From Stegostoma tigrinum (taxonomy: Eukaryota), in the NCBI RefSeq assembly GCF_030684315.1, contig NC_081373.1:17585989-17649988 (forward strand): a stretch of 64,000 bases of DNA, written 5' to 3'. Below, piece by piece: positions 7,527 through 61,660 of the stretch (its first letter is position 1; every line of letters starts with the position of its first letter). The translations under genes were made by a program, and so were the position numbers. The notes beneath the pieces were generated by a model. That model worked only from the letters and a program-made list of their open reading frames with translations. It searched no databases and was not told the origin of the DNA.

Positions 7527-8061
7527 ACTATAATGAAGTACTTCTGACGTGATGGATTGAAGTAAATTCAAAATGTACTTACTGAAATTAATGGGAATAG
7601 ATTGAAAATTGCTCTAAGAAAATGTTGAACCAAACACTGGCCAGCAGATTTGCCATAATTATTCTTGGTATGTCAATCTTGTTTCTTTTTCCCTCAGTTT
7701 GAGATCATGACTACTTTCATTCTTAATTTAGGAATCTCACGGTTTGCTTCCGTTAATTTTAGTTGACCGGTTTGTGACTAAATCTGACAGAATGAAATGA
7801 ATAAATATAGTCAAACTGGTCAGATCACTTCAATTCCTTCTCTTGGATGTTTTACTATTTTGACAGAAAAAATCAAAATCTGATGCCAGGCCTGCTCAGT
7901 AAACAGTTGTACTTATCCAGTATTAAAGAAGCTAAATAAAGAAGGAAGGTTTAAATGTCATTCCTAATTTTGCTAAGTTTCTGCAATCAGCTGTGGCGAT
8001 ATTGGGGATGCTACAATTGGCTCCAGTGTGCTTGAACAAGGAAGGGGTAAGAGAAAAAAGA

Positions 8062-8190
8062 AGGGTTACTGGACCTGAAACATTAATACTGTTTTTGTCT
8101 CCCCAAATGCTGCCAGGCCTGCTGAGTTTCTCCTGCAATTTCTGCTTCTGATTGTTTCAGATTTCCAGCATCCACAGTTCTTTACTTTGA
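8062..8190 (+). mobile_element. PLE pseudo-LTR fragment, HHR family 2 (single arm, degenerate)
   Basis: agggttactggacctgaaacattaatact...gctgccaggcctgctgagtttctcc...gatttccagcatccacagttc, homologous to the arms at 15907-16137 and 61159-61398. Confidence 0.65.
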
Positions 8191-10070: not shown

Positions 10071-10480
10071 TTACAGTCCTTCTTATCAAGTGTTTCATCT
10101 GGGCCATGCGCCTGTTGCCAGGCATGAGTCCTCTTTGCCATGTCACTGCTGTTGGAACAAAAGTTGTAAATCTTGGGCACCACCTCCCAACAAGGCCTTT
10201 GCCGCTATGAGTCCTCAGTAGACCTTGACAATGCAGATGCCACTGATGCTGCTGAGTACCACATCGGCCCAAACTTGACTCCGTCGCCTTGACTCTGCTT
10301 CGGGCCCACTTCGCTGATACAGCTGCTGCTGATCCCACTGGGTCTGGTACTGGGCCCACCCTTACCTCTGCCTCCATGAATTTGCACTAGACACAGATGC
10401 CATCAAGAACCCAAACTCACTTCCACTGTAGCAGCCATGAGTCAATGCAGAAGCAACTGGAAACCCAAACCCTCTGAAGC

Positions 10481-10940
10481 CATGAGTCTGTGCCGGGCCC
10501 AATCACCACGAGTCCATGGGGGGCCCATTCACCATGAGTCCGTGCCGTGCCCATTCACCATGAGTCCGTGCCAGGCCCATTCACCACCAGTCCGTGCCGG
10601 GGCCATTCACCACGAGTCTGTGCCGGGCCCATTCACCACGAGTCCACGGAGGGCCCATTCACCATGAGTTCGTGCCAGGCCCATTCACCACCAGTCCGTG
10701 CTGGACCTATTCACCACCAGTCCGTGCCGTGCCCATTCACCACGAGTCGATGCCGGGCCCATTCACTACGAGTCTGTGCCGGGCCCATTCATCATGAGTC
10801 CACGGAAGGCCCATTCACCATGAGTCCGTGCCAGGCCCATTCACCACCAGTCCGTGCCGGGCCCCTTCACCACCAGTCCGTGCCGGACCCCTTCACCACG
10901 AGTCCGTGCCAGCCCATTCACCACCAGTCCGGGCTGGGCC
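10481..10940. repeat. GC-rich 26-bp minisatellite, about 17.5 copies
   Basis: Consensus gcccattcacca(c/t)(g/c)agtccgtgccgg repeated contiguously with no spacers. Confidence 0.95.
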
Positions 10941-14369: not shown

Positions 14370-15464
14370 CATAGAAACATAGAACATAGAATATTACAGC
14401 ACATGCAGCTGTACAAAACACTAGTGCGGCCTCGTTTGGAATATTGCGAGCAGTTCTGGTCGCCCCATTACAGGAAGGATGCGGAAGCATTGGAAAAGGT
14501 GTAGAGGAGATTTACTAGGATGTTGCCTGGTCTGGAGCAGAGGCCCTATGAAGAAAGGCTGAGGGACTTGGGTCTGTCCTCATTGAAGAGAAGAAGGCGA
14601 AGAGGGGATTTAACAGAGACATACAAGATGATCAGAGGATTAGATAGGGTGGACAGTGAGAGTCTTTTTCCGAGCATGATGACTTCAGCTTGTACAAGGG
14701 GGCATAGCTACAAATTGAGGGGTGATAGATTTAAGACAGATGTCAGAGGCAGGTTCTTTACTCAGAGAGTGGTTAGGGCGTGGAATGCCCTGCCTGCCAA
14801 TGTAGTTAACTCAGCCACATTAGGGGCATTTAAACAGTACTTGGATAACATATGGATAATGATGGGATAGTAGGGGGAGGGGATTAGATTAGTTCACAGG
14901 TTGGCGCAACATCGAGGGCCGAAGGGCCTGTTCTGCGCTGTATTGTTCTATGTCCTATGTTCTAGTACAGGCCCTTTGGCCCTCGGTGTTGTGCCGACCT
15001 GCCATATCGATCTCAAGCCTATCTAACCTACACTATTTCATGTACGCCCATATGCTTATCCAATGACGACTTAAATGTACCTAAAGTTGGCGAATCTACT
15101 ACTGTTACAGGCAAAGCGTTCCATTCCCTTACTACTCTCTGAGTAAAGAAACTACCTCTGACATCTGTCCTATATCTTTCACCCCTCAATTTAAAGCTAT
15201 GCCGCCTCGTGCTGGCCGTCACCATCCTAGGAAAAAGGGTCTCCCTATCCACCCTATCTAATCCTCTGATTATTTTATATGTTTCAATTAAGTCACCTCT
15301 CAACCTTCTTCTCTCTAATGAAAACAGCCTCAAATCCCTCAGCCTTTCCTTGTAAGACCTTCCTTCCATACCAGGCAACATCCTAGTAAATCTCCTCTGC
15401 ACCCTTTCCAAAGCTTCCACATCCTTCTTATAATGCCGTGACCAGAACTGTACACAATACTCCA
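14370..15464 (-). mobile_element. CR1/HER1 LINE 3' fragment, interrupted in its tail by the element at 14404-14963
   Basis: ORF 15028-15480 reads LEYCVQFWS...ALERVQRRFTRMLPG...LFSLERRRLRGDLIE...FFTQRVVREWNALP. The (catagaa)n tail is at 14370-14400 and the element resumes at 14964 (agtacaggccc). Confidence 0.9.
14404..14963 (+). mobile_element. CR1/HER1 LINE 3' fragment
   Basis: ORF 14520-14870 reads MLPGLE...RRRRGDLTETYK...FFTQRVVRAWNALP, followed by a 3' UTR and (ctatgtt)n tail. Confidence 0.92.
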
Positions 15465-15906
15465 GATCTAAATTGTACAATCACTGCAATACCCAGAGGA
15501 AATTGACCAGCAAAATAACCTACAAATAGCTGATGGTTCTTGAACACAGCATTGATGGAGGGTCCTTCTTGAGAGTGAACATATGTTAAGCTGAGTAAGG
15601 TTAAGAGAGAGCATTAGCTGAAGTGCTAAGCTCCACCAACTGGTATGTTGATTGAATTCATAATCTACTGCTCTGCTTGCTTCTGGAAGTTTCTCACTGC
15701 ACACGTGTCTCTGCCAACAACAAAATGCCCAATTTCTCACCTCAGGGAATGTGATAAGATCTCAAGATGCAGATTGAGTTCTTACAAAGTAAAAGTACAT
15801 CTCCTTCACCCTGGAGAACGCAGCACACAGTTGTGAATTCAGCACAAACCAGGATCCAACCATGCATATCCTCAAACAAATAGAAATTTTGCCTGCAAAA
15901 GAAAGT

Positions 15907-16137
15907 AAAAACCAGAAGAACTGTGGATGCTGCACATCAGGAACAAGAACAAAGTTGCTGGAAAAGCTCAGCAGGTCTGGCAGCATCTGTGAAGCAAAAA
16001 ACAGAGTTAACGTTTCAGGTCCGGTGACCATTCCTGTTCTGAGAAAGGATCACTGGACCCAAAACGCTAACTCCGTATTTTCCTTTACAGATGCTGCCAG
16101 AGCTGCTGAGCTTTTCCAGCAACTTTGTTCTTGTTCC
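15907..16137 (+). mobile_element. Fold-back PLE-derived insertion, HHR family 2
   Basis: Inverted arms 15940-16035 and 16036-16137; degenerate HHR gtt-CTGAGAA-aggatcactggaccc-AAAA-cgct-aac. Confidence 0.8.
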
Positions 16138-26600: not shown

Positions 26601-26686
26601 TGATGTGATGTGATGTGATGTGAGCCCACTACAATTCTGGTAACTCAGCCTCTTTTTGTGTAATCTCATAAAAAGACTAATAGGAG

Positions 26687-28436
26687 TACATCCCCCTCTC
26701 TGATGAAGGGTCTAGGCCCGAAACGTCAGCTTTTGTGCTCCTGAGATGCTGCTTGGCCTGCTGTGTTCATCCAGCCTCACATTTTATTATCTTGGAATCT
26801 TCAGCATCTGCAGTTCCCATTATCTCTGATACTATTTTAACCTCACTGCGAAGCCTCTTCCAGGGATGCCTAACCTGAAGAAGTTATCCTCCTCCCTCCG
26901 GACCAACCTCAGGGAATCTCTCTCCCATTGCAACTCTCTTGTCTCCACCTATCTTCTTTACTCTCCATCTTCGGTCCGCCTCCCCCTCTCTCCCTATTTA
27001 TTCCAGTTCCCTCCCCCCATCCCCCTCTCTGATGAAGGGTCTAGGCCCGAAACGTCAGCTTTTGTGCTCCTGAGATGCTGCTGGGCCTGCTGTGTTCATC
27101 CAGCCTCACATTTTATTATCTTGGAATCTCCAGCATCTGCAGTTCCCATTATCTCTGATACTATTTTAACCTCACTGCGAAGCCTCTTCCAGGGATGCCT
27201 AACCTGAAGAAGTTATCCTCCTCCCTCCGGACCAACCTCAGGGAATCTCTCTCCCATTGCAACTCTCTTGTCTCCACCTATCTTCTTTACTCTCCATCTT
27301 CGGTCCGCCTCCCCCTCTCTCCCTATTTATTCCAGTTCCCTCCCCCCATCCCCCTCTCTGATGAAGGGTCTAGGCCCGAAACGTCAGCTTTTGTGCTCCT
27401 GAGATGCTGCTTGGCCTGCTGTGTTCATCCAGCCTCACATTTTATTATCTTGGAATCTCCAGCATCTGCAGTTCCCATTATCTCTGATACTATTTTAACC
27501 TCACTGCGAAGCCTCTTCCAGGGATGCCTAACCTGAAGAAGTTACCCTCCTCCCTCCGGACCAACCTCAGGGAATCTCTCTCCCATTGCAACTCTCTTGT
27601 CTCCACCTATCTTCTTTACTCTCCATCTTCGGTCCGCCTCCCCCTCTCTCCCTATTTATTCCAGTTCCCTCCCCCCATCCCCCTCTCTGATGAAGGGTCT
27701 AGGCGCGAAACGTCAGCTTTTGTGCTCCTGAGATGCTGCTTTGCCTGCTGTGTTCATCCAGCCTCACATTTTATTATCTTGGAATCTCCAGCATCTGCAG
27801 TTCCCATTATCTCTGATACTATTTTAACCTCACTGCGAAGCCTCTTCCAGGGATGCCTAACCTGAAGAAGTTACCCTCCTCCCTCCGGACCAACCTCAGG
27901 GAATCTCTCTCCCATTGCAACTCTCTTGTCTCCACCTATCTTCTTTACTCTCCATCTTCGGTCCGCCTCCCCCTCTCTCCCTATTTATTCCAGTTCCCTC
28001 CCCCCATCCCCCTCTCTGATGAAGGGTCTAGGCCCGAAACGTCAGCTTTTGTGCTCCTGAGATGCTGCTTGGCCTGCTGTGTTCATCCAGCCTCACATTT
28101 TATTATCTTGGAATCTCCAACATCTGCAGTTCCCATTATCTCTGATACTATTTTAACCTCACTGCGAAGCCTCTTCCAGGGATGCCTAACCTGAAGAAGT
28201 TACCCTCCTCCCTCCGGACCAACCTCAGGGAATCTCTCTCCCATTGCAACTCTCTTGTCTCCACCTATCTTCTTTACTCTCCATCTTCGGTCCGCCTCCC
28301 CCTCTCTCCCTATTTATTCCAGTTCCCTCCCCCCATCCCCCTCTCTGATGAAGGGTCTAGGCCCGAAACGTCAGCTTTTGTGCTCCTGAGATGCTGCTTG
28401 GCCTGCTGTGTTCATCCAGCCTCACATTTTATTATC
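26687..28436 (+). repeat. Head-to-tail array of 5.3 x 329-bp PLE-derived units, each with a hammerhead motif (retrozyme-like)
   Basis: Exact 329-nt period and about 99% identical units. HHR cores start at 26700, 27029, 27358, 27687, 28016 and 28345. The array is flanked by the direct repeat taggag (26681-26686 and 28437-28442). Confidence 0.95.
26698..26729 (+). ncRNA. Minimal type I hammerhead ribozyme motif (copy 1 of 6; others at +329 steps)
   Basis: CUGAUGA-A-GGGUCUAGGCCC(helix II)-GAAA-CG-UC^AG. The core is complete, with an extra A after A9 and a palindromic ACGU helix III. Predicted cut is after 26727. Contiguous helix I is only 2 bp (CU/AG). Confidence 0.75.
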
Positions 28437-28649
28437 TAGGAGCTTAGAATTTTTAAGTAGAAGTACAAAGTGCATGCATTTAAGAATTAATTATGAATCA
28501 ACACAAAATATTGGGCAGGTACTAAATGCAGTAATGTACATAGCTTTGCATCCTTGTTATTGAGAGAACATTAAGCCATTTTTAGAACATCCAGCAAAAA
28601 AAATTACCAGAATAATGTTAGGGTTAAGACACCATAGTTATGGTGTTAG

Positions 28650-28780
28650 TGATAATGGGAACTGCAGATGCTGGAGAATCCAAGACAATAAAATGAAGGG
28701 TCTAGGCCCGAAACGTCAGCTTTTGTGCTCCTGAGATGCTGCTGGGCCTGCTGTGTTCATCCAGCCTCACATTTTATTGT
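28650..28780 (+). mobile_element. Fold-back PLE family-1 insertion with 17-bp TSD
   Basis: An inverted segment (tgataatgggaactgcag...gacaataaa) is followed by atgaagggtctaggcccgaaacgtc...attttattgt. TSD catagttatggtgttag at 28633-28649 and 28781-28797. Confidence 0.92.
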
Positions 28781-29737: not shown

Positions 29738-29958
29738 TATCAGTGATAATGGGAACTGCAGATGCTGGAGAATCCAAGATAATAAAATGTGAGGCTGGAT
29801 GAACACAGCAGGCCCAGCAGCATCCCAGGGGCACAAAAGCTGATGTTACGGGCTAGACCCTTCTCTCTGATGAAGGGTCTAGGCCCGAAATGTCAGCTTT
29901 TGTGCTCCTGGGATACTGCTGGGCCTGCTGTGTTCATCCAGCCTCACATTTTATTATC
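29738..29958 (+). mobile_element. Fold-back PLE family-1 insertion with 14-bp TSD
   Basis: Near-perfect inverted arms meet at the HHR (ctctctgatgaagggtctaggcccgaaatgtc). TSD tcggtcaaaaatga at 29724-29737 and 29959-29972. Confidence 0.92.
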
Positions 29959-31189: not shown

Positions 31190-31288
31190 CAACAAAAACA
31201 GAAATTGCTTAAAAAACTCAGCAGGTCTGGCAGCATCTGTGAAAAAAAAATCAGAGTTAACCTTTTGGGTCCAGTGGCTCTTCCTCAG
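31190..31288 (-). mobile_element. PLE family-2 pseudo-LTR insertion with degenerate 16-bp TSD
   Basis: Minus-strand HHR remnant ctgaggaagagccactggacccaaaaggttaactc; flanks aattgtgaatcaactg (31174-31189) and aattgtaaatcaattg (31289-31304). Confidence 0.75.
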
Positions 31289-31317
31289 AATTGTAAATCA
31301 ATTGTCCTTTTTCAGAT

Positions 31318-31445
31318 AATAAAATGTGAGGCTGGATGAACACAGCAGGCCAAGCAGCATCTCAGGAGCACAAAAGCTGACGTTTCGGGCCTAGACCCTT
31401 CATCATTATCTTGGAATCTCCAGCATCTGCAGTCCCCATTATCTC
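31318..31445 (-). mobile_element. Fold-back PLE family-1 insertion with 15-bp TSD
   Basis: A minus-strand HHR arm is followed by the inverted downstream segment ttatcttggaatctccagc. TSD tgtcctttttcagat at 31303-31317 and 31446-31460. Confidence 0.92.
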
Positions 31446-36755: not shown

Positions 36756-37559
36756 ATGATCTGAAGGACTGAAGATTAGTTTCAATTAGTCATCCCTATT
36801 TCAGCCCAGAATGGATAGAAGTGAATAACTGCCTGGTCGATCCACTTAGTCCTGTAGTGACTGGGAATTAGTTAATGTGCGTCATTTGTTTGGGGCTTTA
36901 CTCAAGTTGTTCATTAAATTCCTCCAGTTCATCAAAACTCTTTTGAAACAGATTTTGTCAACTATTCGCATAGTGCACTAACTGATGCACTACGCTGGGC
37001 GTCACTGGCAAGGCCCAGGCCTAACTGTACTCACTTGGTCTGCAGGCTCATTTCAGAGGACGGTTAAAAGTCAGATTGTCGAGAGTCTGCAGTAACATAT
37101 AGCTGATGCCAGTTGGCTGACTCAAAGGCAATATGTTGGAAATTAGCTCGAAAGCCCATGATCTGAAGGACTGAAGATTAGTTTCAATTAGTCATCCCTA
37201 TTTCAGCCCAGAATGGATAGAAGTGAATAACTGCCTGGTCGATCCACTTAGTCCTGTAGTGACTGGGAATTAGTTAATGTGCGTCATTTGTTTGGGGCTT
37301 TACTCAAGTTGTTCATTAAATTCCTCCAGTTCATCAAAAATCTTTTGAAACAGATTTTGTCAACTATTCGCATAGTGCACTAACTGATGCACTACGCTGG
37401 GCGTCACTGGCAAGGCCCAGGCCTAACTGTACTCACTTGGTCTGCAGGCTCATTTCAGAGGACGGTTAAAAGTCAGATTGTTGAGAGTCTGCAGTAACAT
37501 ATAGCTGATGCCAGTTGGCTGACTCAAAGGCAATATGTTGGAAATTAGCTCGAAAGCCC
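36756..37559. repeat. Tandem duplication, 2 x 402 bp
   Basis: 36756-37157 and 37158-37559 are identical apart from two substitutions that I could see (aaaactct/aaaaatct; gtcgag/gttgag). Confidence 0.95.
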
Positions 37560-37584
37560 ATTATATGGAATCATAGAATTTTAA

Positions 37585-43119: not shown

Positions 43120-43328
43120 GATAACAAAGTGTAGAGCTGGATGAACACAGCAGGCCAAGCAGCATCTTAGGAGCACAAAAGCTGACGTTTTGGGCCTATG
43201 ATGACGGGTTTAGGCCTGAAATGTCAGCTTTTGTGCTCCTAAGATGCTGCTTGGCCTGCTGTATTCATCCAGCTCTACACTTTGTTATCTCGGATTCTCC
43301 GGCATCTGCAGTTTCCATTATCTCTGAT
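43120..43328 (-). mobile_element. Fold-back PLE family-1 (sister subfamily) insertion with 14-bp TSD
   Basis: Inverted arms meet at the HHR. TSD acaatgtttgaaga at 43106-43119 and 43329-43342. Diagnostic variant gctctacactttgttatc. Confidence 0.9.
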
Positions 43329-46170: not shown

Positions 46171-46849
46171 TCATAGAACATTACAGCCCCTTCGGCCCTC
46201 GATGTTGTGCCAACCTGTCATACCGATCTCAAGCCCATCTAACCTACACTATTCCATGTACGTCCATATGCTTATCCAATGATGACTTAAATGTACCTAA
46301 AGTTGGCGAATCTACTACCGTTGCAGGCAAAGCGTTCCATTCCCTTACTACTCTGAGTAAAGAAACTACCTCTGACATTTGTCCTATATCTTTCACCCGT
46401 CAATTTAAAGCTATGCCCCCTTGTGCTCGCCATCACCATCCTAGGAAAAAAGCTCTCCCTATCCACCCTATCTAATCCTCTGATTATTTTATATGTTTCA
46501 ATTAAGTCATCTCTCAACCTTCTCTCTGATGAAAACAGCCTCAAGTCCCTCAGCCTTTCCTCATAAGACCTTCCCTCCATACCAGGCAACATCCTAGTAA
46601 ATCTAGTATCAGAGATAATGGGAACTGCAGATGCTGGAGATTCCAAGATAATAAAATGTGAGGCTGGATGAACACAGCAGGCCAAGCAGCATCTCAGGAG
46701 CACAAAAGGGTGCTGATGAAGGGTCTAGGCCCGAAACGTCAGCTTTTGTGCTCCTGAGATGCTGCTTGGCCTGCTGTGTTCATCCAGCCTCACATTTTAT
46801 TATCCTAGTAAATCTCCTCTGCACCCTTTCCAAAGCTTCCACATCCTTC
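46171..46849 (-). mobile_element. CR1/HER1 LINE 3' fragment (same subfamily as 14964-15464), interrupted by a PLE hairpin
   Basis: RFTRMLPGMEGRSYEERLRDLRLFS...GSFFTQ; catagaacattacagc tail. Confidence 0.9.
46605..46801 (+). mobile_element. Fold-back PLE family-1 insertion with 14-bp TSD inside CR1
   Basis: Inverted arm followed by ctgatgaagggtctaggcccgaaacgtc...ttttatt. TSD atcctagtaaatct at 46591-46604 and 46802-46815; the CR1 reading frame shows the empty site had one copy. Confidence 0.95.
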
Positions 46850-48312: not shown

Positions 48313-48483
48313 AAGTGTTGTAACTCTTGGGGGGTATTTTGGGGGGGAGAGGGGGCTGGTGTTTCCTCCGCAGTGAAGTGGAAGGCAAATTAACGAATGG
48401 CCAGACTGCAGTAAGATGGGAGACAATAAAATGTGAGGCTGGATGAACACAGCAGGCCCAGCAGCATCTCAGGAGCACAAAAG

Positions 48484-48515
48484 CTGACGTTTCGGGCCTA
48501 GACCCTTCTTCAGAG
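48484..48515 (-). ncRNA. Minimal type I hammerhead motif in the PLE pseudo-LTR
   Basis: Minus strand reads CU-CUGAAGA-A-GGGUCUAGGCCC-GAAA-CG-UC^AG, identical to the array HHR except at variable position 7. Confidence 0.75.
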
Positions 48516-48742
48516 AGGGGGATGGGGTGAGGGAACTGCAATAAATAGGGAGAGAGGGGGAGGCGGACCGAAGATGGAGAGAAAAGAAGATAGGTGGAGA
48601 GGAGAGTATAGGTGGGGAGGTAGGGAGGGGATAGGTCAGTCCAGGGAAGACGGACAGGTCAATGAGGTGGGCTGAGGTTTGTAGGTAGGAGATGGAGGTG
48701 CAGCTTGGGGTGGAGGAAGGGATGGGTGAGAGGAAGAACAGG

Positions 48743-50740
48743 TTAGGGAGGCAGAGACAGGCTGGGCTGGTTTTGGGATGCAGTGGGTGGAGGGGAAGAG
48801 CTGGGCTGGTTGTGTGGTGCAGTGCGGGGAGGGGACGAACTGGGCTGGTTTTGGGATGCGGTGGGGGAAGGGGAGATTTTGAAGCTGGTGACGTCCACAT
48901 TGATACCATTGGGCTGCAGGGTTCCCAAGCGGAATATGAGTTGCTGTTCCTGCAGCCTTCGGGTGGCATCATTGTGGCACTGCAGGAGGCCCATGATGGA
49001 CGTGTCATCTAAAGAATGGGAGGGGGAGTGGAAATGGTTTGCGACTGGGAGGTGCAGTTGTTTATTGCGAACCAAGGGGAGGTGTTCTGCAAAGCGGTCC
49101 CCAAGCCTCCACTTGGTTTCCCCAATGTAGAGGAAGCCACACTGGGTACAGTGGATGCAGTAAACCACATTGGCAGATGTGCAGGTGAATCTCTGCTTAA
49201 TGTGGAAAGTCATCTTGGGGCCTGGGATAGGGGTGAGGGAGGAGGTGTGGGGGCAAGTGTAGCATTTCCTGCGGTTGCAGGGGAAGGTGCTGGGTGTGGT
49301 GGGGTTGGAGGCCAGTGTGGAGCGACAAAGGGAGACACGGAGAGAGTGGTCTCTCCGGAAAGCAGACAGGGGTGGGGATGGATAAATGTCTTGGGTGGTG
49401 GGGTCGGATTGTAGATGGCGGAAGTGTCGGAGGATGATGCGTTGTATCCGGAGGTTGGTGGGTTGGTGTGTGAGAATGAGGGGGATCCTCTTTGGGCGGT
49501 TGTGGTGGGGGTGGGGTGTGAGGGATGTGTTGCGGGAAATGCGGGAGACGCGGTCAAGGGCGTTCTCGACCACTGTGGGGGGAAAGTTGCGGGCCTTGAA
49601 GAACTTGGACATCTGGGATGTGCGGGAGTGAAATGCCTCATCGTGGGAGCGGATGCGGCGGAGGCGGAGGAATTGGGAATAGCGGTTGGAATTTTTGCAG
49701 GAGGGTGGGTGGGAGGAGGTGTATTCTAGGTAGCTGTGGGAGTTGGTGGGCTTGAAATGGACATCAGTTACAAGCTGGTTGCCTGAGATGGAGACTGAGA
49801 GATTCAGGAAGGTGAGGGATGTGCTGGAGATGGCCCAGGTGAACTAAAGGTTGGGTTGGAAGGTGTTGGTGAAGTAGATGAACTGTTCGAGCTCCTCTGG
49901 GGAGCAAGAGGCGGCGCCGATACAGTCATCAATGTACCGGAGGAAGAGGTGGGGTTTGGGGCCTGTGTAGGTGCGGAAGAGGGACTGTTCCACGTAACCT
50001 ACAAAGAGGCAGGCATAGCTGGGGCCCATGCGGGTGCCCATGGCCACCCCCTTAGTCTGTAGGAAGTGGGAGGAATCGAAAGAGAAGCTTTTGAGGCTGA
50101 GGACGAGTTCGGCTAGGCGGATGAGGGTGTCGGTGGAGGGGGACTGGTCGGGCCTGCGGGACAGGAAGAAGCGGAGGGTCTTGAGGCCATCTGCATGCGG
50201 AATGCAGGTGTATAGGGACTGCACGTCCATGGTGAAAATGAGGTGTTGGGGGCCAGGGAATTGGAAGTCCTGGAGGAGGTGAAGGGCGTGGGCGGTGTCA
50301 TGGACGTAGGTAGGGAGTTCCTGGACCAAAGGGGAGAAAATGGAGTCCAGATAGGTGGAAATGAGTTCGGTGGGGCAGGAGCAGGCTGAGACGATGGGTC
50401 GACTAGGGCAGGCAGGTTTGTGGATTTTGGGAAGGAGATAGAAACGGGCCGTGCGGGGTTGGGGAATAATGAGGTTGGAGGCTGTGGGTGGGAGGTCCCC
50501 TGAAGTGATGAGATCATGAATGGTGTTGGAGATGATGGTTTGGTGCTCAGGTGTGGGGTCATGATCGAGGGGGCGGTAGGAGGTGGTGTCGGAGAGTTGG
50601 CGTCTGGCCTCGGCGATGTAGAGGTCAGTGCGCCATACTACCACTGCGCCACCCTTGTCTGCGGGTTTGATGGTGAGGTTGGGGTTGGAGCGGAGGGAGC
50701 GGAGGGCTGCCTGTTCTACGGGGGAGAAGTTGGAGTGGGT
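48743..50740 (-). pseudogene. PLE reverse transcriptase / GIY-YIG endonuclease ORF (5'-truncated, one internal nonsense codon)
   Basis: RT motifs KPADKGGAVVV, LLPKIHK, RPIVS, TMDVQSLYT, GVAMGTRMGPSYA, LRYIDD; GIY-YIG motif NVVYCIHC..CG.LYIGET..RL..RF.EH. ORFs 49844-50644 and 48743-49612 are in the same frame, separated by TAG at 49844-49846. Confidence 0.93.
48762..48870. repeat. 3 x 39-bp in-frame repeat at the end of the PLE ORF
   Basis: ctgggctggtt starts at 48762, 48801 and 48840; encodes PTASQNQPSSSPP-like repeats. Confidence 0.8.
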
Positions 50741-50855
50741 GAGAGGGGTGGAGAGGTTGTGGGTGGTTAATGTCTCGATGGCAGTTTGAGATGAAGAGGT
50801 CGAGGGAAGTTAGGAGGCCTGGGGGTGGTGTCCAGGAGGAGGAGTAAGATTGGAG

Positions 50856-51636
50856 CTGGGTGAGCCAGCAGCATGGAGGAGGGCCCATCTGACTTTGCAC
50901 TGAGGATGATGCCACTGACATGTCCATCCTCTGCGTAAAACCTAGTTAGGTCTCTGGATCATTAGTCCCTGTCTTCTGGACCGCAGTCTGGTGATATAAT
51001 TGCGATGCTACTGTTCGCTCAATCGCAGATACTTTTGAATCAGACATCCCGTTGTTTATACATTTCAATGTAGCTGTGTTATGAGACAGCATAAACTGAA
51101 GCTATCAGGACCTGGCTTTGGAATTGGCTGTTGCTACAGCGGTGGGGACAGTGTTGGCGAGTTTGGATCAGCGGTGAAAAATGGTGCCTGAGGATCGGTG
51201 ACTTGGCCACACGTTAGGTTCAGCGCTGGAGGTGGTGGAAAGGCATCACCGCACCATTGATGAGATGGGCCCAGCAGTGAGGGATGTGGCTCTGATGCTG
51301 GTGGGGTCCGGCATAGCAGGCGGTGAGGTGTTAGTGGGGAAGAATCAACCCAGGGGCAACAGATGGTGCCTGAAGAGTGGCTTCAATGATGAGTGGGTCT
51401 GGTGCAGTTGGGAGTGATGTGTTGGAGGAAGGATGGCACTGCATGTATTGTTGATGATGTGCTGGCTCAGGACTACTTTACTCTCTTAAAGCGATATCTT
51501 TCTATTTTTTTTCCCTTATTCTTAAAACTATCCAAAATGGCACCGGATCGTGGTGACAATGGAAAAGCTTTTCATTGTATTTTTCTGTTTTCTTACTGTA
51601 AAGTACTTGTGACAATAAAGTCATTCATTCATTCAA
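50856..51636 (+). mobile_element. Non-autonomous element with Rex1/Babar-like tail (probable PLE target)
   Basis: 3' end aatggcaccggatcgtggtgac...gcttttcattgta...gtgacaataaag(tcat)n, similar to the tail of 9600-11150. Confidence 0.45.
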
Positions 51637-52987
51637 AATGAAACTACAATCTTTAAGTGTAATGCCTTCCCTTTAACTATAATTGCAGTCCATCAAGATA
51701 GGATTTTCCTTTTTTAAAGTTGAATTCATCCCTTTTAGTAGTATAACATGGTGTAATTATTGTAGGTATTTTAGAAAAAAAGAATGCTGCTTCGAAATTC
51801 CATAATCCAATTACATCAGAAGCACATGAAGTATTAAAACCCACTTCAAATATTCGTTGCAACATGTATGTTTAGCTCACATATAATTGAAGAGTGATTT
51901 GTTTTAGCCAGGCAAAGTTACTACTTTGTAAGGACTTAAATTCTTTTTCCTTATACTTAATTGGACTTTAGTCACTGCATGCTAATACCTCTCAGCTGGT
52001 TTTAATTTAAAGAGGGAAATGTCGACTGATGGTAATTAGATTTACAGAATGCACCAATAGAAACGCAGGATGTCTGTTTGTATAAGAGCACATGGGAGAA
52101 CTTCAACTATTAGAAAGCTACCTTAAGAGAAGTTCTGATGTTGACTTTAACAAGGTGCAAAGTGGCACCAGTAGCACACTGTACTGGAAAGCGAAAAAAT
52201 GTTCTTCTCTGAAACAAATTTAATCTGTAACATTTAACGGTTTTGTAAAAAAGTCTTAAAAAGCTGTCAATAAATTTAAACTTCAGAAAATGGAAGATCG
52301 AACAAAAGAAAACAAAAGATTTAATTAACATAACACCTAACCATACTTTTCAAACAAAAATCTCAAAGTGCTTCACATGCTATGTCCCACTTCAAAGGAA
52401 AGTAACTGCAGTTTTTAAATAAGCCGCAAAATGCCCAAAATAGCAATGAGATGAATGGTCTGTTAATTTATTTTCTTTGCTAGAATTTGTTGAGGAGTGT
52501 TGGCCAAGATTTTGAGAGCGATGTTTGGCCTTCTTTACAGGGTGATCTTTTTTTAAAAGTAGCAACTGTTACAAATTTCTCTCTCAACCAAGGAGAGAAA
52601 TTGGCAGAAGCAAAGAGCAAAGTTTTCCTTAAATGATGCAGGATGGTGGAATAGAGAAGGAAAGGCCACACTGGAAAGTGAAAGGAGAAGATTATCACAA
52701 ATCGGAACACTCGAGGAGTGGAGCCAAATACACAGGGGTTATCTTGTACAAATTTAAGTGTTAGTTGAAATTTAATAATCTATCCATAACTCCCAGAGTA
52801 TAGCTTTCCCTTTGTTGGAAAAACATCATGAATACTCGATGCAATCTGCATCTCACATTCTTGCCTTTATGCTAATATAGTAGCAAAAAATATTCCAAGC
52901 ATCAATTATAAATATTGCAATTTAAAAAAAACTGTCTTGGGAGCAATTTATCCCAAAGTTCCAAACAAGATACTGTGCACAAGTTCT

Positions 52988-53657
52988 GTGCAGATACATA
53001 GATCCCTTAAAATGGCCACCCAAGTGGACAGGGTTGTTAAGAAAGCATATGGTGTTTTGGCTTTCATTAACAGGGGGATTGAGTTTAAGAGTCGTGAGAT
53101 CTTGTTGCAGCTCTATAAAACTTTGGTTAGACCGCACTTGGAATACTGCGTCCAGTTCTGGGCGCCCTATTATAGGAAAGATGTGGATGCTTTGGAGAGG
53201 GTTCAGAGGAGGTTTACCAGGATGCTGCCTGGACTGGAGGGCTTATCTTATGAAGAGAGGTTGACTGAGCTCGGTCTCTTTTCATTGGAGAAAAGGAGGA
53301 GGAGAGGGGACCTAATTGAGGTATACAAGATAATGAGAGGCATAGATAGAGTCGATAGCCAGAGACTATTTCCCAGGGCAGAAATGGCTAGCACGAGGGG
53401 TCATAGTTTTAAGCTGGTTGGTGGAAAGTATAGAGGGGATGTCAGAGGCAGGTTCTTTACGCAGAGAGTTGTGAGAGCATGGAATGCGTTGCCAGCAGCA
53501 GTTGTGGAAGCAAGGTCATTGGGGTCATTTAAGAGACTGCTGGACATGCATATGGTCACAGAAATTTGAGGGTGCATCCATGAGGATCAATGGTCGGCAC
53601 AACATTGTGGGCTGAAGGGCCTGTTCTGTGCTGTACTGTTCTATGTTCTATGTTCTA
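52988..53657 (+). mobile_element. Young 5'-truncated CR1/HER1 LINE, open ORF2 C-terminus
   Basis: Uninterrupted frame QVDRVVKKAYG...[19 protein letters not shown]...WNALP to the stop at 53569; (ctatgtt)n tail. Confidence 0.95.
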
Positions 53658-59526: not shown

Positions 59527-60075
59527 TATAGAGTCATGGAGCTGTAAAGCACAGCCAGGGGTTCTTTGGCCCATTGGAATTTACTGGTTAAAAACAAGCG
59601 CATGACTATTCTAACTCCATTAGAATGGCCTTGTATGCTTTGGCGTTGCACCTCTGAATACGTCTGAAACGTTACGTAAGTTTCTGCCTCTACTACCCAT
59701 ACAGACAGTGAGTTCCAGATTCCCACTGCCCGGGGGGTAAAAAAGAAAATCCTCATGTCCCCTCTGAATCTCCCACCCCTTACCATAAATCTCTGCCCCC
59801 TGTTTATTGATCCTTCCACCAAGGGGAATGGTTCCTTCTTGCTGACTGTACCTAAGGTGCCCGTCAGTTATGTCCCGGCCCAGTCTCCTCTGTTCCAAAG
59901 GAAACAACAGCGGTTTGCCCAATCTCTCTTCATAACTAAACCTCTCCAGTCCAGGCAACTTCCTGGTAAATCTCCTCTGCACCCTTTCCAGTGCAAGCAC
60001 ATCCCTCCTATAATGTGGATTCTGGAATTGTATACAATACCCTAGCTGTTGTCTAACTAACACTTTATACAGTTA
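59527..60075 (-). mobile_element. CR1 LINE 3' fragment
   Basis: LVRQQLGYCIQF...ALERVQRRFTRKLPGLE; GGRFRGD...GIWNSL. Confidence 0.9.
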
Positions 60076-60759: not shown

Positions 60760-61660
60760 AAGAGTGATCATTGTATGGCTATGGACTATGATTGGTAGAG
60801 GCAATGCAGTGAAGAATAAACCAGTTGGTGATGATTGACAGTCAACTGTCAAGCTCTGTTTAACTTTTAAATCAGGCAGGTTGACTTTGTTTAGCCAAGG
60901 TAGCTCCCTGTGAAATGAACCAAAGAATACCTATTAATACCTATTTTATTGATTTGAAACAGGTGCGGTGTGTATACTTTATTTTTGGCTGTAGAGAACA
61001 GAAGCCCTGCGTATTCATATATGTAGCTTCTAGTTCTCACCAATGCACTACTCTATGATCCAGACTGACAATCTTAAATTGCTTGTTAGCATAATTCTTC
61101 AAATACACCAGATTATCCAACAAATGCTGTCTAAAACGGGAAACATATCTCATTCCACCAAAAACAGAAATTGCTGGAAAAGCTCAGCAGGCCTGGCAGC
61201 ATCTGTGTAGAGGAATCAAAGTTAACGTTTGAGGTCCAGTGACTCTTCCTCAGAACTGAGGTGTTCTGAGGAAGATTCAGTGGACCCAAAACAATAACTC
61301 TGATTTCTCTCCACAGATGCTTGCCAGGCCACCTGAGCTTTTCCAGCAATTTCTGTTTTTGTTCCTGATTTCCAGCACCTGCAGTTCTTTCGGTTTTTAA
61401 ACATAGCTCACTATAGTGAGTTTTTTTGCAAGCTAGTTGAATGTGCTGTGTGCCTTTCTTTAGTGAACAGCTAAATGGACGTACTATTTGATGCAATCCA
61501 TCAGTGATGTGTGGCCTATGTGCTAGGCATCACACTGGCATTGAAATTCATGTACCACTATACTCATTTGTGTGATAGGCAAAGCTTCTTTGTAGCTTGA
61601 TGACAGTGTCCAGTTACTGGGGAACACTATTCATGTTCCTCCTTCACACTAATAAGTCTG
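60760..61660 (-). mobile_element. Old, distinct PLE GIY-YIG C-terminus and 3' UTR (interrupted)
   Basis: Hand translation of the minus strand gives LPITQMSIVVHEFQCQCDA*HIGHTS (61590-61515), QHLLDN...KNYANKQFKIVS and ELEATYMNTQG (61130-61005), a decayed GIY-YIG domain. Confidence 0.65.
61159..61398 (-). mobile_element. Fold-back PLE family-2 insertion
   Basis: About 100-nt inverted arms meet at two back-to-back HHR remnants (agtt-CTGAGGA-A-gagtcactggacctc-aaacgtt-aact). Degenerate TSD aaacata(t/g)ctca at 61141 and 61399. Confidence 0.85.

What the first reader, a model, noticed from the sequence alone, without database searches (positions are those of the whole stretch)
26687..28436. Retrozyme-like array: six hammerhead ribozymes spaced exactly 329 nt apart, inserted as one retrotransposition event
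Seen: 5.3 units of 329 bp, about 99% identical, each carrying CUGAUGA-A-GGGUCUAGGCCC-GAAA-CG-UC, bounded by a 6-bp direct repeat (taggag) and ending at the same nucleotide as the PLE at 48423. Established: PLE pseudo-LTRs carry minimal type I hammerheads; those with a palindromic helix III (here ACGU) must fold as dimers, as in newt satellite 2; metazoan non-LTR retrozymes are tandem units of a few hundred nt that self-cleave to monomers and circularise. Inference: this is a non-autonomous shark retrozyme directly derived from, and mobilised by, the PLE family present in this window. The tandem layout would supply dimer partners and yield a 329-nt monomer or circRNA. Caveat: the contiguous helix I is only 2 bp, so activity is unproven.
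Basis: partly seen in the sequence, partly recalled or inferred. Interest (0 to 1): 0.88.

Follow-up and report, generated by a model that had tools for sequence, protein, structure and literature searches.

The report
Tandem mini-Penelope retrotransposon in a shark
This is a real 1.75-kb run of five head-to-tail copies of a shark jumping gene that has lost nearly all of its protein-coding part and kept only a weak-looking self-cutting RNA motif; such arrays are a known kind, and this one is a clean example of how they arise.

Summary
The array is real: 5.3 units of 329 bp, 99% alike. Each unit is a Penelope-like element (PLE, Neptune-type by motif) with its middle deleted. It keeps the last ~76 nt of the 3'UTR, the pseudo-LTR with the hammerhead, the tail, the 5'UTR and the first 26 codons of the ORF. 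Those 26 residues are identical to the N-terminus of a zebra-shark PLE-derived protein. The 3' end sits at the family's usual insertion end, inside a 6-bp direct repeat (chance about 1%; five sibling inserts have 14-17 bp). PLE origin is therefore well supported and PLE-driven insertion likely. The variants shared between units fit one circular template poorly. Most likely it was copied from an uncut multi-unit transcript, or inserted short and then expanded locally. PLE-derived retrozyme arrays are already reported, including in one cartilaginous fish. Copies at other loci could not be checked.

The parts
26681..26686 (+). Left copy of the 6-bp direct repeat (probable target-site duplication), followed by 2 extra bases at 26687-26688
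   Evidence: chance 0.8-1.4% in 5000 random pairs
26689..28436 (+). Head-to-tail array: 5 full 329-bp units (starting 26689, 27018, 27347, 27676, 28005) plus 103 bp of a sixth (28334)
26689..26792 (+). Unit positions 1-104: PLE pseudo-LTR end, up to the family's usual 3' insertion end (same in each unit)
   Evidence: 97% identical to PLE 48524-48421; sibling inserts end at positions 100-103
26698..26729 (+). Minimal type I hammerhead: 2-bp helix I, 4-bp helix II with a self-complementary 12-mer, 2-nt palindromic helix III; predicted cut after 26727. Repeated every 329 nt; the unit 4 copy has a helix II mismatch at 27705
   Evidence: consensus features from PMC4209133
26793..26834 (+). Unit positions 105-146: PLE 'tail' between the two inferred reverse-transcription start sites
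   Evidence: the inverted arms of 5 of 5 short inserts start at unit positions 136-145 (146-150 by BLAST); tail concept from PMC11167929 and PMC8557442
26866..26943 (+). Unit positions 178-255: start codon and first 26 codons of the PLE ORF
   Evidence: 26 of 26 residues identical to the N-terminus of P0121 (Stegostoma tigrinum XP_059505880.1), which aligns from residue 1 with full-length PLE protein P0010 at E 2e-15; best-scoring of 127,858 six-frame 23-mers
26942..26943 (+). Deletion junction: ORF codon 26 joined to the 3'UTR through 2 shared bases, within a weakly similar C/T-rich stretch; removes about 2.6 kb of ORF and about 140 nt of 3'UTR (inferred from relatives of 840-960 aa)
   Evidence: ORF-side DNA beyond codon 26 was not available
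26942..27017 (+). Unit positions 254-329: last ~76 nt of the ~218-nt PLE 3'UTR
   Evidence: alignment to the PLE just above 48524
28437..28442 (+). Right copy of the 6-bp direct repeat
48421..50882 (-). 5'-truncated, frameshifted PLE of the same family (RT, CX4CX2C linker motif, GIY-YIG-type endonuclease region, 3'UTR, pseudo-LTR with hammerhead); a relative, not the direct parent
28650..28780 (+). Short two-armed insert of the same family (inverted tail arm plus direct pLTR arm), 17-bp TSD
29738..29958 (+). Short two-armed insert, 14-bp TSD
31318..31445 (-). Short two-armed insert, 15-bp TSD
43120..43328 (-). Short two-armed insert (older, more diverged), 14-bp TSD
46605..46801 (+). Short two-armed insert, 14-bp TSD

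Best explanation
A non-autonomous mini-PLE. SHOWN: each unit is a shark PLE whose ORF is deleted after codon 26 and joined to the end of its own 3'UTR. The unit keeps the pseudo-LTR, hammerhead, tail and ORF start but no enzyme. INFERRED, strong: the family's RT/GIY-YIG protein inserted it in trans by target-primed reverse transcription starting inside the RNA at unit position 103/104, leaving a short target duplication. INFERRED, moderate: the template was a linear, uncut read-through transcript of a slightly heterogeneous head-to-tail source array elsewhere, copied back to about where family cDNAs normally stop (position 1-25). The hammerhead is inherited with the pseudo-LTR, probably cleaves little unaided, and is not needed for this route.
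For: ORF-start identity 26 of 26 residues and top rank in the profile scan; 186-nt match to the PLE 3' end at 94.6-96.2%. The 3' end equals that of 5 of 5 short inserts and the PLE. The copy runs through all six cut sites, and 5 of 5 direct arms of sibling inserts stop at positions 8-25, none at the cut (39/40), so templates were uncut or re-ligated. In the anole PLE, RT starts internally, needs a tandem read-through RNA and does not need ribozyme cleavage (PMC11167929). Units are not independent copies of one template: units 1 and 2 share T at position 199 where units 3-5 and P0121 have the other state, and unit 2 carries G at position 66, a family variant seen in 3 of 6 independent inserts. 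Simulated chance for 7 independent substitutions is 0.8%, 0.5% and 0.005% together.
Against: No second locus with this junction was found, but no shark genome could be searched; protein searches and the prokaryote scan are nearly blind to it. The direct repeat is 6 bp against 14-17 bp in 5 of 5 siblings, and the array lacks the inverted tail arm that all five have. Gene conversion or unequal exchange after insertion would give the same shared variants. One inverted arm (46605 insert) ends 2 nt from the cut site, which a cleaved template could explain. The mechanism is borrowed from a Poseidon-clade element. The transcription start near position 1-25 is inferred only.
Confidence: 0.48

Rival explanations
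1. Local expansion: a 1.3- to 2.3-unit deleted PLE was inserted once (or the deletion happened in place), and unequal exchange or slippage between its direct repeats built the 5.3 units. It is then a young minisatellite, not a mobile family.
For: Same outer ends are expected. The shared variant in adjacent units 1 and 2 is the usual mark of duplication. A 402-bp, 400/402-identical tandem duplication of unrelated sequence lies at 36756-37561. Li et al. propose this route for retrozyme birth. The ORF-start motif occurs nowhere else in the window (5 of 5 matches in the array).
Against: The family variant at position 66 sits in an inner unit, with both outer pLTRs in the other state, which needs an extra conversion. 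Four rounds of exact expansion are needed.
Confidence: 0.3
2. One reading: dimeric or protein-assisted hammerheads cut the transcript to a 329-nt monomer, it is ligated to a circle, and PLE RT rolls round it 5.3 times.
For: Every unit has one core and the unit is exactly cut-to-cut. The minimal-hammerhead consensus features are present: unpaired base before helix II, G10.1-C11.1, palindromic helix III. The cDNA crosses the cut sites, as a circle would allow. The derived position-199 state is in the last-made units, as a switch to a second circle would give. Circles of 330-350 nt are shown for axolotl. A circle could also have founded a source array.
Against: Helix I is 2 bp. The monomer core is trapped by self-pairing (probability 0.52-0.59), and the two-core cofold gives -38.0 kcal/mol for the helix II duplex against -5.5 for the double hammerhead. 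The monomer is not highly self-paired: 36% paired as a circle, z 0.24 as a linear strand. One template predicts no shared variants. 8 of 9 Xenopus dimers did not cleave. Energy models ignore tertiary contacts and proteins, so none of this excludes cleavage.
Confidence: 0.17
3. Assembly artefact: one or two units expanded by the assembler.
For: Units are 99% identical; reads were not available.
Against: Four of five full units carry private or shared single-base differences, the window has no N, and both ends coincide with biologically expected positions inside a direct repeat.
Confidence: 0.04

Closest known systems
Animal non-LTR retrozymes as PLE derivatives (Li, Clavereau, Pollet, bioRxiv 10.64898/2026.07.22.740005; main text read; supplements not available)
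   Same: Tandem repeat with a type I (here minimal) hammerhead in each unit. Unit 329 bp against their mean of 363 bp for one chondrichthyan; 75% of their families have at most seven units; homology to PLE pLTRs.
   Different: They show co-occurrence and pLTR homology. Here the origin is read base by base as an internal deletion keeping 26 ORF codons. Their main text does not name the chondrichthyan, so this family may or may not be in their supplement.
Non-LTR retrozymes of coral, mussel and axolotl; newt satellite 2 (Cervera and de la Pena 2020, PMC7229834; parts 2-3 of 6 and passages read)
   Same: 150-450 bp tandem units with one type I hammerhead each, TSD longer than 4 bp, a palindromic helix III that needs a partner, PLE proposed as mobiliser.
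   Different: Coral and axolotl retrozymes have canonical hammerheads, and these elements give abundant, highly self-paired circular RNAs. This one has an unmodified minimal PLE hammerhead, a C/U-rich poorly paired monomer (50.8% GC), and no RNA evidence.
Non-autonomous and deleted PLEs: MRC1 and other non-autonomous Chlamys (PMC8557442, PMC9940879; passages), Adineta vaga Penelope derivatives (PMC3846280; passages)
   Same: [quoted passage not shown]
   Different: Different clade and host. MRC1 is shown to be active and multicopy; mobility here is untested.
PAc (Poseidon, Anolis) mechanism (Frangieh et al. 2024, PMC11167929; main text parts 1-2 of 4 read, supplements searched by keyword only)
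   Same: Two RT start sites a tail-length apart downstream of the hammerhead; cDNA crosses the uncut ribozyme.
   Different: PAc start sites lie inside the ORF; here they lie 32-75 nt before the start codon. This family is Neptune-like by linker motif.
Minimal PLE hammerheads, including the Drosophila virilis variant (Cervera and de la Pena 2014, PMC4209133; parts 1-2 of 4 read)
   Same: Core boxes, unpaired base before helix II, G10.1-C11.1, palindromic helix III; 2-bp helix I as in D. virilis; low cleavage in vitro.
   Different: Helix II is short (4 bp against 6-8 in the examples described) and self-complementary over 12 nt.

Membership tests
Non-autonomous PLE derivative | Sequence derived from an autonomous PLE's ends (pLTR, 3'UTR, 5' region) | tested here: met
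Non-autonomous PLE derivative | No RT or endonuclease coding capacity | tested here: met
   longest stop-to-stop frame 125 aa, no Pfam match; ORF ends at the junction after codon 26
Non-autonomous PLE derivative | 3' end at the family's insertion end, head-to-tail arrangement | tested here: met
   position 103/104 as in 5 of 5 short inserts and the PLE
Non-autonomous PLE derivative | Target-site duplication | tested here: inconclusive
   6 bp, chance about 1%, shorter than the 14-17 bp of 5 of 5 siblings; empty allele not available
Non-autonomous PLE derivative | Dispersed copies with the same junction (a mobile family) | not testable with these tools
   no eukaryotic genome collection; indirect protein searches blank
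Neptune-clade PLE (parent) | CX2-5CxxC motif between RT and C-terminal GIY-YIG endonuclease (shared with Nematis) | tested here: met
   CX4CX2C in frame 48743-49843; definition in PMC8557442
Neptune-clade PLE (parent) | RT phylogeny with named clade references | not tested
   no clade-labelled reference proteins in hand; Nematis not excluded
Non-LTR retrozyme, operational definition of Li et al. 2026 | Tandem repeat with two or more consecutive units holding a complete canonical or minimal type I hammerhead | tested here: inconclusive
   units 1-3 and 5-6 hold intact cores; their descriptor was not available, so acceptance of a 2-bp helix I is unknown
Non-LTR retrozyme, operational definition of Li et al. 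2026 | Hammerhead motif MFE below -5 kcal/mol | tested here: met
   -11.0 kcal/mol, but for a core-trapping fold, not the active one
Non-LTR retrozyme sensu Cervera and de la Pena 2020 | 150-450 bp tandem units, no LTR/PBS/PPT, TSD longer than 4 bp | tested here: met
Non-LTR retrozyme sensu Cervera and de la Pena 2020 | Classical type I hammerhead with typical helix sizes | tested here: not met
   helix I 2 bp, minimal helix III; no Rfam hammerhead match
Non-LTR retrozyme sensu Cervera and de la Pena 2020 | Monomer predicted as a stable, highly self-paired circle; GC below 50% | tested here: not met
   36% paired, -50.5 kcal/mol, GC 50.8%; z 0.24, 62 of 100 shuffles fold as well
Non-LTR retrozyme sensu Cervera and de la Pena 2020 | Self-cleavage and expression as linear and circular monomer RNA | not testable with these tools
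   needs in vitro transcription, northern blot or RNA-seq

The most novel reading that the evidence does not exclude
A retrozyme caught at birth: one deletion turned a shark PLE into a 329-nt unit that is now a mobile family in its own right. PLE protein assists cleavage, the monomer circularises and seeds new arrays, and the 12-nt self-complementary helix II acts as an RNA dimerisation handle for a dimeric PLE RT, which would also explain why the two-armed short inserts join near it. With the parent family in the same genome, the PLE-to-retrozyme transition could be tested step by step.
Probability: 0.15. Interest if true: 0.62.

Novelty: new member of a known kind. Interest (0 to 1): 0.35.

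Why it matters
The idea that animal retrozymes come from PLEs is in print, but it rests on co-occurrence and pLTR similarity. This locus shows the step directly: a PLE with one internal deletion, still 95-96% identical to its family and still carrying the ORF start. That makes it a convenient test case for two open points: whether such arrays move through ribozyme-made circles or uncut multimers, and whether minimal PLE hammerheads cleave at all in vivo. If the junction is unique and no RNA is made, it is an ordinary dead PLE derivative, and a caution that motif-based retrozyme counts include inert arrays.

Tried and rejected
Rfam: 0 matches at gathering score in 64 kb; one chance lncRNA match at E 2.7 in 801 bases. 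Search for the junction in predicted proteins: 0 of 4 candidates, 0 of 8; phmmer over 1.84 billion representatives gave 1 hit, P0121, which has the ORF start but not the junction. All are weak evidence for a non-coding repeat. Junction 26-mer in prokaryotic genomes: 0 matches, uninformative except against a bacterial origin. BLASTP of the unit against the 120 RT relatives was too insensitive to find the ORF start; the profile scan found it, but its columns were chosen after I had noticed the likeness, so P0121 is the independent proof. Host exons: 0 of 300 scanned frames (the longest of 347 frames of 55 aa or more outside the array and PLE) matched Pfam; sensitivity is low, so intron versus intergenic is unresolved. 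Back-splicing as the source of the junction: rejected, no AG acceptor just before the 3'UTR segment. A longer helix I by distal pairing: not supported, helix I pairing probability about 0 in ensembles. Lunse et al. 2017 on dimeric PLE hammerheads is not held; known only through a review passage. Literature searches: no paper holds Penelope + Stegostoma + repeat; searches listed no study of a shark retrozyme beyond Li et al., whose supplements could not be seen and may list this family.

Full report
Observation. The array is as described. TRF gives 5.3 copies of 329 bp at 99%, six hammerhead cores lie exactly 329 nt apart, and only 6 of 329 positions vary. One variant (27705, unit 4) breaks a helix II pair, so 5 of 6 cores carry the quoted motif. 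A 6-bp direct repeat flanks it (26681-26686, 28437-28442); 38 and 69 of 5000 random position pairs do as well at 2 and 3 nt of slack. Rfam finds no hammerhead family here.

Host and parent. The RT frame at 49844-50809 matches Pfam RVT_1 at E 2.3e-6, just under the curated cut-off. It finds 1144 proteins at E<=1e-30, the best from Chiloscyllium punctatum at 82% identity. The downstream frame holds a CX4CX2C linker and a GIY-YIG-type region, the layout given for Neptune and Nematis PLEs (PMC8557442, passages). This copy spans about 48421-50882, lacks its 5' part and has frameshifts.

What the unit is. Positions 248-329 and 1-104 match the PLE's 3' end at 94.6-96.2% over 186 nt. Positions 105-146 also occur in the inverted arms of five short inserts of the family. 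The rest was unexplained until translated. A peptide starting at position 178 ranked first among 127,858 six-frame 23-mers against a profile of PLE N-termini built from 39 of 48 full-length relatives; 14 of 100,000 shuffles scored as well. I chose the profile columns after seeing the likeness, so independent proof was needed. phmmer returned one hit, P0121, a Stegostoma tigrinum RefSeq protein. Its first 26 residues are identical to the unit's, and it then continues as a PLE ORF, aligning from residue 1 with full-length P0010 at E 2e-15. The unit instead jumps after codon 26 into the last ~76 nt of the 3'UTR, with 2 shared bases at the join. So the unit is a PLE with one internal deletion of roughly 2.7 kb, and the host is probably the zebra shark or a close carpet shark.

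How it got there. Five short inserts of the same family share one design: an inverted arm starting at position 136-145, a direct arm ending at 100-103, and TSDs of 17, 14, 15, 14 and 14 bp. Two start sites about 40 nt apart match the tail and internal RT initiation shown for the anole PLE, where read-through tandem RNA is the template and ribozyme cleavage is not needed (PMC11167929). The array ends at the first site, so PLE-driven insertion is likely. Its repeat is shorter than the siblings' and it has no inverted arm, which I cannot explain. The direct arms stop at positions 8, 12, 13, 15 and 25, and the array stops at 1; none stops at the cut site (39/40), though one inverted arm ends at 42. 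Templates were therefore mostly uncut or re-ligated.

One template or several. Units 1 and 2 share T at position 199; units 3-5 and P0121 have the other state. Unit 2 alone has G at position 66, a variant present in 3 of 6 independent family inserts. If all units were copied from one circle and then took 7 independent substitutions, the two patterns arise in 0.8% and 0.5% of 20,000 simulations. The simulation ignores gene conversion, so it rejects only the simplest rolling-circle history. A heterogeneous multi-unit source transcript (0.48) or local expansion of a short insert (0.30) fit better than rolling circle (0.17). These weights are my judgement from one locus.

The ribozyme. It has the consensus features of minimal PLE hammerheads, and a 2-bp helix I like the D. 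virilis variant; those motifs cleave poorly even as dimers (PMC4209133). In the monomer the core pairs with its own cut site (probability 0.52-0.59). Two cores cofold through the self-complementary helix II at -38.0 kcal/mol, against -5.5 for the double hammerhead. In real unit pairs 1-2 and 5-6 the inter-unit helix II pair has probability 0.999 and the helix III pair about 0. The monomer is C/U-rich, 36% paired as a circle, and no more stable than shuffles, unlike the highly self-paired circles of coral and mussel retrozymes. These are equilibrium secondary-structure models; the anole ribozyme cleaves once protein is added, so activity is not excluded.

What is known. Li, Clavereau and Pollet (bioRxiv 2026.07.22.740005, main text read) report tandem hammerhead repeats in 20 of 31 vertebrates, including one chondrichthyan (mean 363 bp), argue that they derive from PLE pLTRs, and found cleavage in 1 of 9 Xenopus dimers. 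Non-autonomous PLEs with multicopy head-to-tail insertions (MRC1) and internally deleted Penelope copies are also described. I file this as a new member of the non-autonomous PLE derivatives. It looks like a retrozyme and may pass the operational 2026 definition, but it fails two tested features of the 2020 description (classical hammerhead, highly self-paired monomer), so I do not file it there.

Verdict. The addition is a base-level origin for such an array. Mobility as a family, cleavage and circular RNA remain untested. Interest 0.35.

Noticed in passing
window 28650-28780, 29738-29958, 31318-31445, 43120-43328, 46605-46801: Five short two-armed inserts of one PLE family in 18 kb, all with 14-17 bp TSDs, two start sites about 40 nt apart, and direct arms stopping at the 5' edge of the hammerhead. 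In two of them both arms share private variants, as if copied from one RNA.
   Followed up: yes
window 26708-26719 and each unit: Helix II is self-complementary over 12 nt and dominates predicted pairing between units; it could be a dimerisation handle or simply a trap.
   Followed up: partly
P0121 (XP_059505880.1), residues about 154-163: After about 150 residues of PLE ORF this gene model reads into sequence resembling the translated tail region, suggesting another rearranged PLE derivative annotated as a gene.
   Followed up: no
window 36756-37561: Tandem duplication of 402 bp, 400 of 402 bases identical, unrelated to the PLE.
   Followed up: partly
window 8060-8190, 15900-16120, about 28998, 31260-31290, 61170-61330: Older, diverged repeats weakly similar to the pLTR, some with decayed hammerhead-like cores; probably a second PLE family.
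   Followed up: no
window 10480-10940: GC-rich minisatellite, 26-bp period, 17.8 copies, 81% matches.
   Followed up: no
window 14505-15480, 46180-46600, 52832-53569, 59620-60072: Related LINE 3' fragments (CR1-like, label recalled); the 46605 PLE insert sits inside one of them.
   Followed up: no
window 48761-48874: 39-bp repeat (2.9 copies) at the end of the PLE ORF, extending the frame past the end seen in relatives.
   Followed up: no
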